A stretch of 64,000 nucleotides of DNA, from positions 1 to 64,000 of IMG/VR virus record IMGVR_UViG_3300036834_000189; one strand, given 5' to 3'. The notes below the pieces were generated by a model. The model was given only the letters and a program-made list of their open reading frames with translations, was not told the origin of the DNA and searched no databases. Positions 30,066 to 31,686 of the stretch are shown in pieces. Each line of letters opens with the position of its first letter. The first letter of the stretch is position 1. The position numbers and the translations under genes are program-made. This DNA comes from a virus.

Positions 30066-31025
30066 TTACTCAGCAGCGGTGGGCGGTGCCCGATAGTGGG
30101 CATGTCCCAGTATCGCGATCGGGTAGGGGGCGGGCGGCTCTTTGCCGAATTCGCGTCGGTACCATTCATTATGTAGATTCGCCAGGAACAGCTTCACAAC
30201 CCACCGCCGCGCCATCGCATCGATATGGCCGGGCGACAGCACGCCAGTGCTGTAGTGCTTGAACGCCTCGGTGTCCCGGCCGACCTTGGTCGCCAGCCCC
30301 AATGCCCGCTCGCGGTAGTCGCCGCGGAGATTGTTCGCGACATATTTCGCCTTCTGCTCGCGGTACAACCGCCCGTAATAGCATTCGGGTTGGTTGCTGA
30401 ACTTCATGAACGATTGTCCGACCTTCCATTGGATAACCTTCAGCCGCGCGTTGAACGGGCGCTTCGTGCCTTTTTCCCACGGCTTCTGCCCGTCGCCCGC
30501 CAAGCCGGCGAACTGCCAGATGTGACCGACAGTCGGGCAGGACTCCACCGGGGTATAGACGTGGCTGTGGAGCTTCCGCTTCTTGTCGGCCTGCCGCTTG
30601 GCGCAGTTCGCTGCGGAGCGGCCATGGCACACGCTGCACCACAGACCCATGTAGATGTGCGCCAACAACCCGGCGCTGAGCACAGGGCCGATGCCGTAAA
30701 TCGACCGCATGAAACTACCCATGCGGTGCGCTCGGGTGTACTGGTCGAGCGCGGATTTGATGCCCTCTTCGAGGGTCTCGAACGATCCGCCGAGCCAGTC
30801 GAGCACGGCATTGGGCGGCTCGCCCTCGGCGACCTGGCGGATCTGCGCCGCCGCACGAATGCGGTCGTGCTGCATGTCGTAGTACGTGTCGACCAAGTAG
30901 CGCGCCGCGTCATCTCCCAGCACTGCGGCGGCGCTCCGCAGTTCCCGGGTCAGCCGCCGCACCGCGGTGGAAAAATCATCAAACGCGTCGTCTTGGTCGT
31001 CGATTGGGGTGCTCTCGTTTTTCAT
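30066..31025 (-). CDS. Nop-domain / IS110-related RNA-binding protein, TasA-like effector of the dual-spacer arrays
   Basis: Coiled-coil N-terminus, SIYGIGPVLSAGLLAHI, TVGHIWQFAGL, FNARLK, YYGRLY...K, HIDAMARRWVVKLFL. No DEDD RuvC domain and no catalytic SG loop. Flanked on both sides by arrays. Confidence 0.8.
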   Translation of the reverse strand: MKNESTPIDDQDDAFDDFSTAVRRLTRELRSAAAVLGDDAARYLVDTYYDMQHDRIRAAAQIRQVAEGEPPNAVLDWLGGSFETLEEGIKSALDQYTRAHRMGSFMRSIYGIGPVLSAGLLAHIYMGLWCSVCHGRSAANCAKRQADKKRKLHSHVYTPVESCPTVGHIWQFAGLAGDGQKPWEKGTKRPFNARLKVIQWKVGQSFMKFSNQPECYYGRLYREQKAKYVANNLRGDYRERALGLATKVGRDTEAFKHYSTGVLSPGHIDAMARRWVVKLFLANLHNEWYRREFGKEPPAPYPIAILGHAHYRAPPTAAE

Positions 31026-31686
31026 GGTTCCTCACTCATCGGTATTGGTTCTCTCTACTGATGATGGCTCGCTCATCATCCCTGGTACCCTCTAGGTTTG
31101 TGGCTCGCTCGGTCTCAATGGTTCAACTCCCGCTTCACGGCTCGCTCATATTCTTTGGTGCTCTCAATGGCAATGGCTCGCACTGGCTCGCACTCGCCGT
31201 ATGGTTCATCTCGCTCAACATTCATGGTGCCCTCTATATTCGTGGCTCGCTCAGCCTCAATGGTTCAACTTGGGCCGAGTGGCTCGCTCAGACTGTTTGG
31301 TGCTCTCAGCTGACATGGCTCGCTTCGCTCTTGTGGCACTCTCCCTTACTTTGGCTCGCTCCTCGCGCATGGTGCTCTCATGTACCGTGGCTCGCTCCCT
31401 CATCCTGGTTCATACTCCCCAATCATGGCTCGCTCTCACCATATGGTGCTCTCGTCGCGGGTGGCTCGCTCCCTCATCCTGGTTCATACTCTCCAATCAT
31501 GGCTCGCTCGACTTCCTTGGTTCGTACTCCGGCGTGACGGCTCGCTCTCGTTCCTTGGTTCAACTCATGCACGCATGGCTCGCTCATTACGTCTGGTTCG
31601 ACTCCGGTCTCTTGGCTCGCTCGCCTGGTGTGGTCCTACTCGTGATGTCTGGCTCGCTCTCGCAAATTTGGTACTCTCGGTCGCTC
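31026..31686 (-). ncRNA. Dual-spacer guide array E (TIGR-like), ~17 units, directly upstream of the Nop-domain gene
   Basis: Transcribed-strand unit AGCCA-N8-GAGAG(C/T/A)ACCA or GAGT(T/C/AT/AC)GAACCA-N8-GAGCG, 36-38 nt. Confidence 0.92.

What the first reader, a model, noticed from the sequence alone, without database searches (positions are those of the whole stretch)
31023..31060. Terminal repeat of the array doubles as the ribosome-binding site of the effector; arrays sit in 5'UTRs
Seen in sequence: the last edge repeat of array E is altered from GAGCGAGCCA to GAGTGAGGAACCA|TG, supplying a GAGG SD and the A of the Nop gene ATG. Array D likewise ends GAGTTGCGCCTC-ATG on gene 29085-29498. 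In array G the last spacer slot (CGAGGGGG) is the likely SD of sciP-2, and array B ends just before the SD of 20641-21141. Inference: effector binding or processing of the pre-guide RNA could occlude or cut the RBS. That would give autoregulation and post-transcriptional control of downstream genes.
Basis: partly seen in the sequence, partly recalled or inferred. Interest (0 to 1): 0.7.

Follow-up and report, generated by a model that had tools for sequence, protein, structure and literature searches.

The report
Guide-array end forms tasA ribosome site
In a 116-kb phage, the gene for a small RNA-guided DNA-binding protein (TasA) starts inside the last unit of its own guide-RNA array, so its ribosome-binding site is made of repeat sequence that the protein itself binds and cuts; this could let TasA limit its own synthesis, but that is untested.

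Summary
On the minus strand, array E (17 units of a dual-repeat TIGR array) runs without a gap into the ATG of a 319-aa ORF. The last repeat is a diverged edge repeat, GAGTGAGGAACCA (31037-31025). It carries GAGG 4 nt before the ATG, and its last A is the A of the ATG. The array in fact continues further: an 8-nt slot and a loop repeat (31016-31007) lie in codons 1-6.

The ORF is a nuclease-less Tas (TasA-like) by fold and profile. It keeps the Tyr/His pair that processes pre-tigRNA in SpTasH.

The layout recurs. Of 31 related loci with a sense upstream array abutting tas, 13 place the start codon within 17 nt of the start of the terminal repeat. All four loci with at least 60% identity do so.

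The statements about arrays D, G and B are also correct. However, only 5 of the phage's 9 arrays sit directly 5' of a co-directional gene.

Autoregulation by occlusion or cutting is plausible and fits published TIGR biochemistry, but it is untested. A 2026 preprint already speculates that tigRNA maturation and Tas translation are coupled. This scan noted the same layout in two other phages. Verdict: a real, moderately interesting variant of a known system.

The parts
31007..31690 (-). TIGR array E. It has 17 canonical edge repeats (GAGCGAGCCA) alternating with loop repeats (GAG..ACCA), 8-nt spacers and units of 36-38 nt. It starts with a degenerate edge at 31690-31679 and ends inside the tas coding sequence.
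31697..31702 (-). TATAAC, a -10-like box overlapping the stop codon of the upstream gene, 7 nt before the first degenerate edge repeat. It is a possible array/tas promoter. Arrays B and I have TATATT and TATAAT at the same relative place.
   Evidence: inference only. The promoter scan did not score it.
31065..31074 (-). Last canonical edge repeat GAGCGAGCCA. This is the last site where Tas-type cleavage is expected with confidence, 40-49 nt before the ATG.
31046..31055 (-). Last canonical loop repeat GAGAGAACCA.
31025..31037 (-). Terminal altered repeat GAGTGAGGAACCA in the edge slot. Its first 7 nt are edge-like with a C4-to-T change, GAA is inserted, and CCA is kept. Its last A is the A of the tas ATG.
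   Evidence: L003 has GAGCGAGGAA.. and L001 has GAGCGAAAGGAA.. at the same place.
31030..31033 (-). GAGG Shine-Dalgarno core, 4 nt before the ATG.
31023..31025 (-). tas start codon. It is the only ATG/GTG/TTG between the in-frame TGA (31034-31032) and the conserved region that begins near residue 15.
31007..31016 (-). Loop repeat GAGAGCACCC inside tas codons 4-6 (Glu-Ser-Thr), exactly 8 nt after the CCA of the terminal repeat. The AUG therefore lies in a spacer slot between box C and box D.
   Evidence: Residues 1-20 have pLDDT below 50.
30066..31025 (-). tas gene, 319 aa: coiled coil plus Nop domain with a Cys-rich insertion and no nuclease domain (TasA-like).
30102..30125 (-). Codons for Y301 to H308 (YPIAILGH), in a low-confidence C-terminal loop. 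They match the Y289-x6-H296 pre-tigRNA processing pair of SpTasH (YVQEKLGH).
29701..30015 (-). Cro/C1-type HTH gene between tas and array D. Its last 25 or so codons are encoded by the first units of array D.
29499..29796 (-). TIGR array D. It ends with edge (29528-29519), AAATTAGG, and a loop variant GAGTTGCGCCTC (29510-29499) that abuts the ATG at 29498. The SD AGGGAG (29513-29508) straddles the spacer and the GAG of the repeat.
29085..29498 (-). 137-aa gene of unknown family directly after array D. The start is taken as ATG 29498, which has SD pairing of -7.4 kcal/mol; the upstream TTG 29534 has -2.7 kcal/mol and lies in the array.
   Evidence: the start was not confirmed by homologs.
21142..21317 (-). 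TIGR array B and its junction. The last edge is at 21179-21170, the SD AAGGGAGGTGAT at 21158-21147, and the TTG start at 21141 of gene 20641-21141. A TTGGCA-17-TATATT promoter-like site lies at 21352-21324.
49606..49702 (+). TIGR array G (2 units) and its junction. The last edge is at 49673-49682, GAGGGGGG at 49684-49691 in the spacer slot, and ATG at 49700 of a DUF1153/SciP-family gene (49700-49915).

Best explanation
The window is part of a 116-kb phage genome. It carries a dual-repeat TIGR system with one nuclease-less Tas (TasA-like) and nine arrays.

Array E is the 5' leader of the tas mRNA (inferred). It starts a few bases after a -10-like box and runs on the same strand, without a gap, into the tas start codon.

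The translation start region of tas is the last array unit (shown). The SD (GAGG) lies in a diverged terminal edge repeat. The AUG sits in an 8-nt spacer slot between that repeat's CCA (box C) and the GAG (box D) of a further loop repeat in codons 4-6.

Tas proteins bind exactly these box C/D motifs, and dual-repeat Tas proteins cut in the middle of edge repeats with a Tyr/His pair that this protein keeps. Tas assembling on the last unit should therefore either cover the SD and AUG, or cut within or just 5' of the SD. Either would lower its own translation as Tas accumulates, giving negative feedback that ties effector supply to guide maturation (inferred).

The same logic applies more weakly to the genes directly after arrays D, G and B. 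Their SDs lie 0-12 nt past the last repeat.

Shown: the anatomy, the family assignment and the recurrence in relatives. Inferred: co-transcription, and binding or cleavage at the terminal unit with its effect on translation.
For: Anatomy at base resolution.

The ATG is the only possible start. There is an in-frame TGA two codons upstream, and conservation among homologs begins near residue 15.

Family assignment:
- The top ten fold hits are TasR 9MTY and TasH 9W0x, probability 1.00.
- The profile matches 9mty at 7.5e-10 and TasH at 4.9e-5.
- There is no nuclease domain.
- Y301-x6-H308 lies in a flexible C-terminal loop with the same Y-x4-[IK]-L-G-H pattern as the SpTasH catalytic pair Y289/H296.

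Published biochemistry:
- Both repeat types are bound through the 5' box D and the 3' CCA box C, and mature tigRNAs begin and end in the middle of edge repeats (Faure 2025).
- The Y/H pair cuts the edge repeat (Xu 2026 preprint; NAR 2026).

Signals around the junction:
- SD pairing is -7.7 kcal/mol, reached by 3.3% of random 20-mers.
- The start region is unstructured in the naked RNA.
- No promoter-like or terminator-like site lies between the array and tas.

Recurrence in relatives:
- 31 non-redundant related loci have a sense-oriented upstream array abutting tas. In 13 the start codon lies within 17 nt of the first base of the terminal repeat.
- In L041, L049, L059, L061, L093 and L031 the SD GGAG is made of the last spacer base(s) plus the GAG of the terminal half-repeat.
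- In L002 and L093 the A of CCA is the A of ATG, as in the window.
- All four loci with at least 60% identity (window, L001, L002, L003) are of this kind.
- The terminal unit ranks near the top for SD complementarity among its array's units (combined p about 0.007).
Against: - No RNA data exist for this phage.
- The purine-rich repeats are SD-like by nature. In array E four internal units equal or beat the terminal one (rank 5 of 21), and internal ATGs reach -7.9 kcal/mol.
- The 4-nt SD-to-ATG spacing is at the short end of this phage's range, whose mode is 5-8 nt.
- Faure 2025 reports that minimal arrays were processed only if they had full edge repeats. A diverged or truncated terminal repeat may therefore not be cut.
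- 17 of 31 related loci with upstream arrays use a separate SD 10-40 nt downstream, and most relatives have only downstream arrays. The overlap is therefore not required for function.
- Some related loci are not independent (L049 and L059).
Confidence: 0.5

Rival explanations
1. Compaction without regulation. The array simply fills the intergenic space of a tightly packed phage operon. Because the repeats are GAG-rich, any gene placed after them gets an SD-like element for free. Tas binding or cutting at the degenerate last unit is negligible, and tas translation does not depend on Tas level.
For: - Internal units are as SD-like as the terminal one in this array.
- More than half of related upstream-array loci have an ordinary separate SD.
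- Arrays in this phage also occur at operon ends and as stand-alone units.
- Terminal 3'-truncated edge repeats are the normal end of TIGR arrays (Faure 2025).
- In SpTIGR the terminal edge is likewise reused, there as one arm of the terminator stem.
Against: - Across ten loci the terminal unit is enriched for SD complementarity relative to internal units.
- The same altered element GAGYGAGGAA recurs in L003 and the window. The CCA|TG fusion recurs in L002 and L093, whose Tas proteins are only 40-73% identical to the window's Tas.
- The AUG sits in an exact 8-nt spacer slot flanked by both box motifs.
Confidence: 0.33
2. Insulator. The terminal repeat diverged (C4 to T, GAA insertion) precisely so that Tas no longer cuts it. 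This protects the tas mRNA from being severed from its SD while the upstream units are processed. The overlap then marks escape from regulation, not regulation.
For: - The terminal repeat differs from all 17 canonical edges and resembles the uncut loop class (GAGT..GAACCA) more than the edge class.
- Processing needs full edge repeats.
Against: - GAG and CCA, the two protein-contact motifs, are both kept. A further loop repeat follows in register, so binding is still expected.
- In L041, L049, L059 and L061 the SD lies 5' of the expected cut, so a cut would remove it.
Confidence: 0.12
3. Wrong start or independent transcript. tas translation begins further downstream (for example GTG at codon 22), or a promoter inside the last units makes a separate, short-leader mRNA, so the array is not its 5'UTR.
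For: - Residues 1-20 are predicted disordered.
- The N-termini of homologs vary in length.
Against: - The stretch DDFSTAVRRL from residue 15 is conserved in close homologs, and R24 is invariant. A start at codon 22 would remove conserved sequence.
- No other ATG/GTG/TTG exists between the upstream stop and residue 15.
- No promoter-like site was found in 31026-31200.
Confidence: 0.05

Closest known systems
SpTIGR-TasH of Salicola phage CGphi29 (Faure et al. 2025, PMC12045711; NAR 2026, PMC13421893; PDB 9W03/9W04)
   Same: - Dual-repeat array with almost the same edge repeat (AAGCGAGCCA against GAGCGAGCCA), loop repeats ending in ACCA, and 8-nt spacers.
- Phage-borne.
- The Tyr-x6-His processing pair lies in a flexible C-terminal loop with the same ..LGH motif.
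- The terminal edge repeat is reused for a flanking signal.
   Different: - SpTasH has an HNH nuclease; the window's protein has none.
- The Sp array lies downstream of the gene and ends in a terminator whose stem contains the terminal edge. Here the array lies upstream and its end forms the SD and start codon.
- Sp has one array; this phage has nine.
Nuclease-less TasA systems acting as RNA-guided transcriptional repressors (Xu et al. 2026 preprint, 10.64898/2026.09.09.750476; FpTasA in Faure 2025)
   Same: - Solo coiled-coil plus Nop architecture.
- Arrays lie upstream, downstream or between operon genes.
- The expected activity is DNA binding without cleavage.
   Different: - The tested repressor (MbTasA) and the intragenic example (BlTasA) are stem-loop systems without the Y/H loop. 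This one is dual-repeat with the Y/H pair.
- No target of its spacers was found.
Intragenic tigRNAs at the 5' end of tas (Xu et al. 2026 preprint, Fig. 1d and text)
   Same: Array units lie inside the 5' end of the tas reading frame in disordered protein segments. [quoted passage not shown]
   Different: They describe this mainly for stem-loop arrays and do not mention the SD or start codon being made of repeat sequence. They also state that co-transcription cannot be settled from sequence. Here the junction leaves no room for a separate promoter.
Autogenous translational control by RNA-binding proteins that recognise a copy of their RNA site in their own leader (ribosomal proteins; archaeal L7Ae binding a K-turn in its own 5'UTR). 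This comparison rests on my own knowledge and was not checked here.
   Same: The protein's cognate RNA motif overlaps its own ribosome-binding site, giving negative feedback.
   Different: Here the operator would be a real, possibly functional guide unit and not a mimic. The protein may cut as well as bind. None of this has been tested.
Effector self-processing of co-transcribed guide arrays (Cas12a, Cas13 pre-crRNA processing). This comparison rests on my own knowledge.
   Same: The effector matures its own guides from a long precursor using a site separate from target cleavage.
   Different: CRISPR arrays are not normally the 5' leader of the effector mRNA, and repeats are not known to serve as its SD.

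Membership tests
Dual-repeat TIGR array (Faure et al. 2025) | Two distinct short repeats (8-12 nt) alternate, separated by short spacers (8-9 nt), in units of about 36 nt repeated many times. | tested here: met
   Edge GAGCGAGCCA and loop GAG..ACCA, 8-nt spacers, units of 36-38 nt, 17 units in array E. There are 64 edge matches against 9.8 expected.
Dual-repeat TIGR array (Faure et al. 2025) | Edge and loop repeats share the same 5' motif (box D) and the same 3' CCA (box C). | tested here: met
   Both repeat classes start with GAG and end with CCA on the strand that carries tas. Box D is GAG here rather than the UG of TasR arrays; the paper says these motifs can diverge but covary.
Dual-repeat TIGR array (Faure et al. 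2025) | [quoted passage not shown] | tested here: not met
   The terminal repeat is diverged or truncated as expected, but arrays E, D, B and G are followed by an SD and start codon, not a terminator. This is a typical feature rather than a strict requirement. It is met in SpTIGR.
Tas protein (Nop-domain effector) | Coiled-coil plus Nop-domain fold like TasR and TasH. | tested here: met
   AlphaFold model pLDDT 79. Foldseek ranks 1-10 are all TasR 9MTY or TasH 9W0x/21KL/9VZX, probability 0.99-1.00, followed by IS621. The profile matches 9mty at 7.5e-10 and TasH at 4.9e-5.
TasA subtype | No HNH or RuvC nuclease domain N-terminal to the coiled coil. | tested here: met
   The protein is 319 aa and only about 25 disordered residues precede the coiled coil. 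There is no Pfam nuclease hit.
Dual-repeat Tas with autonomous pre-tigRNA processing | Conserved Tyr/His pair on an extended loop at the C-terminal end of the Nop domain (SpTasH Y289/H296). | tested here: met
   YPIAILGH (Y301, H308) against SpTasH YVQEKLGH, with the same spacing. H308 is invariant and Y301 is Tyr in 26 of 30 homologs, Phe in the rest. The loop has pLDDT below 50. The match was made by motif, not by structural superposition.
Dual-repeat TIGR-Tas | The array is transcribed and processed into 36-nt tigRNAs bound by Tas. | not testable with these tools
   No RNA run was listed for this sequence.
Autogenous translational operator | The protein's cognate RNA motif overlaps its own SD or start codon. 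| tested here: met
   The order is GAG..CCA | AUG-containing 8-nt slot | GAG..CCC. The layout recurs in 13 of 31 related loci.
Autogenous translational operator | Binding or cleavage by the protein lowers translation of its own mRNA. | not testable with these tools
   This needs reporter fusions, toeprinting or 5'-end mapping.

The most novel reading that the evidence does not exclude
Tas-catalysed guide maturation is also an mRNA-processing switch. Cutting or occupying the last array unit removes or masks the SD of tas. The same happens at arrays planted before phage regulator genes (two HTH genes, a SciP-like gene). One RNA-guided DNA binder would then control its own level and a small set of phage genes after transcription, which would explain why arrays are scattered through the genome in leader positions.
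Probability: 0.2. Interest if true: 0.75.

Novelty: new variant of a known kind. Interest (0 to 1): 0.45.

Why it matters
How TIGR-Tas systems are expressed and controlled is an open question. [quoted passage not shown]

This locus and about a dozen relatives give a concrete case with base-level detail. No promoter fits between array and gene, and the SD and start codon are built from the protein's own binding and cutting motifs. The coupling idea can therefore be tested directly with a small reporter construct.

If it holds, it would be a compact self-limiting circuit for an RNA-guided protein. It would also bear on engineering TIGR-Tas expression cassettes. If it fails, the layout is an example of phage genome compaction around a repeat that happens to look like an SD.

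Tried and rejected
- RNA evidence: the look-up of sequencing runs listed no RNA holder for 29000-32500.
The DNA of the closest protein homologs (P0002, P0003, P0005, P0006) could not be read. Their N-termini (ERA and EST tripeptides in P0005, like P0004) only hint at in-array starts.
- The metagenome scan gave only 5 loci, none closer than 56% identity.
- tblastn of Tas against cultured phages gave no match. SpTasH had to be fetched by accession.
- Self-targeting: no spacer pair of 49 parsed units matches the phage's own 116 kb in either order with gaps of 0-6 nt. There were 0 perfect hits, and 4 one-mismatch hits against 4 in a mis-paired control. Regulation of the phage's own DNA by these guides is therefore not supported.
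- RNA structure: the 125 nt around the start fold no better than shuffles (z = -0.6), and the SD and AUG are unpaired. A structure-based switch is rejected.
- Homologs of the HTH gene, the 137-aa gene after array D and the upstream coiled-coil gene were not found in the 115 fetched loci, so the start of the array-D gene is not confirmed.
- PMC13171457 was opened in the hope that it was the TasH processing paper. It is an unrelated Cas9 paper. The exact scissile position in the edge repeat was not found in the texts held.
- The promoter scan found no more sites than shuffles (7 against 5.6), so the promoter assignments are weak.
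Full report
**Observation.** The finding lies on the minus strand. Read 5' to 3', the end of array E is:
- edge repeat GAGCGAGCCA (31074-31065)
- 8-nt spacer
- loop repeat GAGAGAACCA (31055-31046)
- 8-nt spacer
- GAGTGAGGAACCA (31037-31025)
- TG, completing the ATG

GAGG lies at 31033-31030, 4 nt before the ATG at 31025-31023. That ATG opens a 319-aa ORF (30066-31025). The edge motif with at most one mismatch occurs 64 times in the window against 9.8 expected, so the arrays are real.

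- D ends edge-AAATTAGG-GAGTTGCGCCTC-ATG(29498).
- G ends edge-C-GAGGGGGG-8 nt-ATG(49700).
- B ends 11 nt before AAGGGAGGTGAT, which lies 5 nt before the TTG at 21141.

One correction: array E does not stop at the ATG. After the CCA come exactly 8 nt (TGAAAAAC) and then GAGAGCACCC (31016-31007). This matches the commonest loop repeat at 9 of 10 positions. The AUG therefore sits in a spacer slot, and codons 4-6 (Glu-Ser-Thr) are a repeat.

**What it is.** The window is the first 64 kb of a 116,206-bp virus record. It carries phage-type helicases, DnaB, an SbcC-like protein and a DNA polymerase.

The repeats fit the dual-repeat TIGR array of Faure et al. 2025. Two short repeats alternate, both end in CCA (box C), both share the same 5' motif (here GAG), the spacers are 8 nt and the units about 36 nt.

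The ORF has no Pfam hit, but the following place it in the Tas family:
- It has 2,400 homologs.
- Its profile matches TasR 9MTY (7.5e-10) and TasH (4.9e-5).
- Its model (pLDDT 79) has TasR and TasH chains as its ten best fold matches at probability 0.99-1.00, followed by IS621.
- Only about 25 disordered residues precede the coiled coil, so it is a nuclease-less, TasA-like protein.
- Its C-terminal loop reads YPIAILGH (Y301, H308). SpTasH, fetched from Salicola phage CGphi29, reads YVQEKLGH at Y289/H296, the residues shown to cut pre-tigRNA. H308 is invariant and Y301 nearly so among 30 homologs.

The Sp array uses almost the same edge repeat (AAGCGAGCCA) and 8-nt spacers.

**Is the ATG the real start?** An in-frame TGA lies two codons upstream. 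The next ATG/GTG/TTG is GTG at codon 22, which lies inside the conserved stretch that begins at residue 15 (DDFSTAVRRL; R24 invariant). ATG 31025 is therefore the only plausible start.

Residues 1-20 are predicted disordered and vary among homologs. In P0004 and P0005 the N-termini are plain translations of array units, with ERA encoded by GAGCGAGCC and EST by GAGAGCACC.

**How SD-like is it?**
- The 20 nt before the ATG pair with the anti-SD at -7.7 kcal/mol. Only 3.3% of random 20-mers of this genome reach that value. It is stronger than 85% of crudely called genes, a figure inflated by start-call errors.
- The 4-nt spacing is at the short end of this phage's range, whose mode is 5-8 nt.
- The repeats are SD-like in themselves. 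Positions equivalent to the tas start in the internal units of array E have a median of -4.3 kcal/mol, but four units equal or beat the terminal one.
- The naked RNA around the start is unstructured (z = -0.6).

**Relatives.** I fetched 80 viral, 30 genomic and 5 metagenomic loci that encode relatives. Arrays beside tas are purine-rich on the tas strand, meaning co-directional with tas, whether they lie upstream or downstream.

Thirty-one non-redundant loci have an upstream array abutting tas:
- In 13 the start codon lies within 17 nt of the first base of the terminal repeat: window, L001, L002, L003, L031, L040, L041, L042, L043, L049, L059, L061, L093.
- In 17 a normal SD follows 10-40 nt after a terminal half-repeat.
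- In one a hairpin intervenes.

The terminal repeat usually keeps only GAGCG or GAGCGA. This matches the '3' truncated edge repeat' of Faure et al. and a cut in the middle of the edge.

Several independent solutions put the SD in the repeat:
- L003 has GAGCGAGGAA.. and L001 has GAGCGAAAGGAA.., like the window.
- L041, L049, L059, L061, L093 and L031 form GGAG from the last spacer base(s) plus the GAG of the half-repeat.
- L002 and L093 fuse CCA with ATG as the window does.
- L043 has the same 'repeat-ATG-short slot (7 nt)-loop repeat' layout, although its Tas protein is only 47% identical.

All four loci with at least 60% identity are of this overlapping kind. In ten such loci the terminal unit ranks 1-5 of 7-21 units for SD complementarity (Fisher combined p about 0.007). 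That figure is approximate, because ranks are discrete and L049 and L059 are related.

**The other arrays.** The phage has nine arrays:
- Five sit directly 5' of a co-directional gene. A precedes an HTH gene by about 90 nt. B, D, E and G abut their genes.
- C and I end operons that converge on opposite-strand genes.
- F and H have their own AT-rich leaders and point against their neighbours.

The statement 'arrays sit in 5'UTRs' is therefore only half true. Across related loci, 63 of 134 arrays are followed within 60 nt by a sense ORF of at least 80 aa, against 33 of 134 in an antisense control (a rough measure).

**Mechanism.** The following is published:
- Tas dimers hold tigRNA by box D and box C of both repeat types.
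[quoted passage not shown] The following is shown here: tas has those residues, and its SD and AUG lie between such boxes at the array end with no space for a promoter.

From these I infer that tas is translated from the array transcript. A -10-like TATAAC lies 7 nt before the first degenerate edge, and arrays B and I have TATATT and TATAAT in the same position. I further infer that Tas assembling on the last unit masks the SD and AUG, or cuts at GAGUG|AGG within the SD. Either outcome gives negative feedback. I put this at about 0.5.

Against it:
- Minimal arrays needed full edge repeats to be processed, so the diverged terminal repeat may be bound but not cut, or may be ignored.
- The overlap is absent from most relatives.

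The main rival is plain compaction next to a repeat that looks like an SD (0.33). Two minor rivals are an 'insulator' reading, in which the repeat diverged to escape cutting (0.12), and a wrong start or separate transcript (0.05).

**Comparison with what is known.** The system is a member of the TIGR-Tas family, dual-repeat, TasA subtype. It is closest in RNA grammar to SpTIGR.

Arrays upstream of tas, between operon genes, and even inside the 5' end of tas have been reported. [quoted passage not shown] Neither that preprint nor Faure 2025 mentions ribosome-binding sites, SD overlap or autoregulation. The preprint also says co-transcription cannot be decided from sequence.

What is new here is the base-level case that the start region is itself the last guide unit, and its recurrence in a TasA clade.

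Earlier notes of this scan describe the same layout in two other phages (e1-5923497, e1-3488448). Those are leads and not independent evidence.

**Dead ends.**
- No RNA run was listed.
- No self-targets were found.
- There is no structural switch.
- No homologs were found that could fix the start of the array-D gene.

Noticed in passing
window 29701-29796 (-): The Cro/C1-type HTH gene between tas and array D reads about 75 nt into array D. Its last 25 or so codons are array units, and its stop is the TGA inside a loop repeat GAGTTGAACCA. A non-tas gene therefore also overlaps an array.
   Followed up: partly
window 31022-31039 (-): A 5-codon mini-ORF, ATGAGTGAGGAACCATGA, ends in an ATGA overlap with the tas start codon. 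That arrangement is typical of translational coupling, but the mini-ORF's own SD is weak (-3.5 kcal/mol), so it is probably chance.
   Followed up: partly
window 31369-31509 (-); 29630-29657 (-); genome 81159-81222 and 81564-81591 (+): Units are duplicated within and between arrays. There is a 74-nt tandem duplication in array E (89% identity). An identical half-unit, edge + spacer A (ATCCTCCT) + loop, occurs in arrays D and I. One spacer pair occurs twice in array I. Arrays therefore seem to grow and spread by duplication or recombination. The spacer ATCCTCCT resembles the anti-SD.
   Followed up: partly
L116:15740-15800 (Salicola phage CGphi29): In SpTIGR the last edge repeat, GAGCGAGCCCGC, is one arm of the hairpin of the array's terminator (..CACAGAGCGGGCTTTTTT). 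Terminal edge repeats are thus reused for flanking signals in that system too.
   Followed up: no
window 38103-38460 (-) and genome 78322-78560 (-): Arrays F and H point against the flanking plus-strand genes and are preceded by AT-rich, promoter-like leaders. They look like stand-alone transcription units far from tas.
   Followed up: partly
window 30540-30650 (-), Tas residues about 126-165: The Nop domain carries a Cys-rich insertion (CxxC .. C .. C). About two thirds of close homologs have it and the rest lack it cleanly. It may be a zinc ribbon and is not described for TasA as far as I read.
   Followed up: no
L002:730-935: In the closest viral relative (73% identity) the only in-frame canonical start lies inside the array, at GAGCGAGCC|ATG. 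About 67 codons of array units would then be translated as an N-terminal extension of Tas.
   Followed up: partly
window 25543-26211 (-): A phage-encoded RNase H (Pfam E = 1.5e-47) lies 4 kb from tas. No link to the TIGR system was examined.
   Followed up: no
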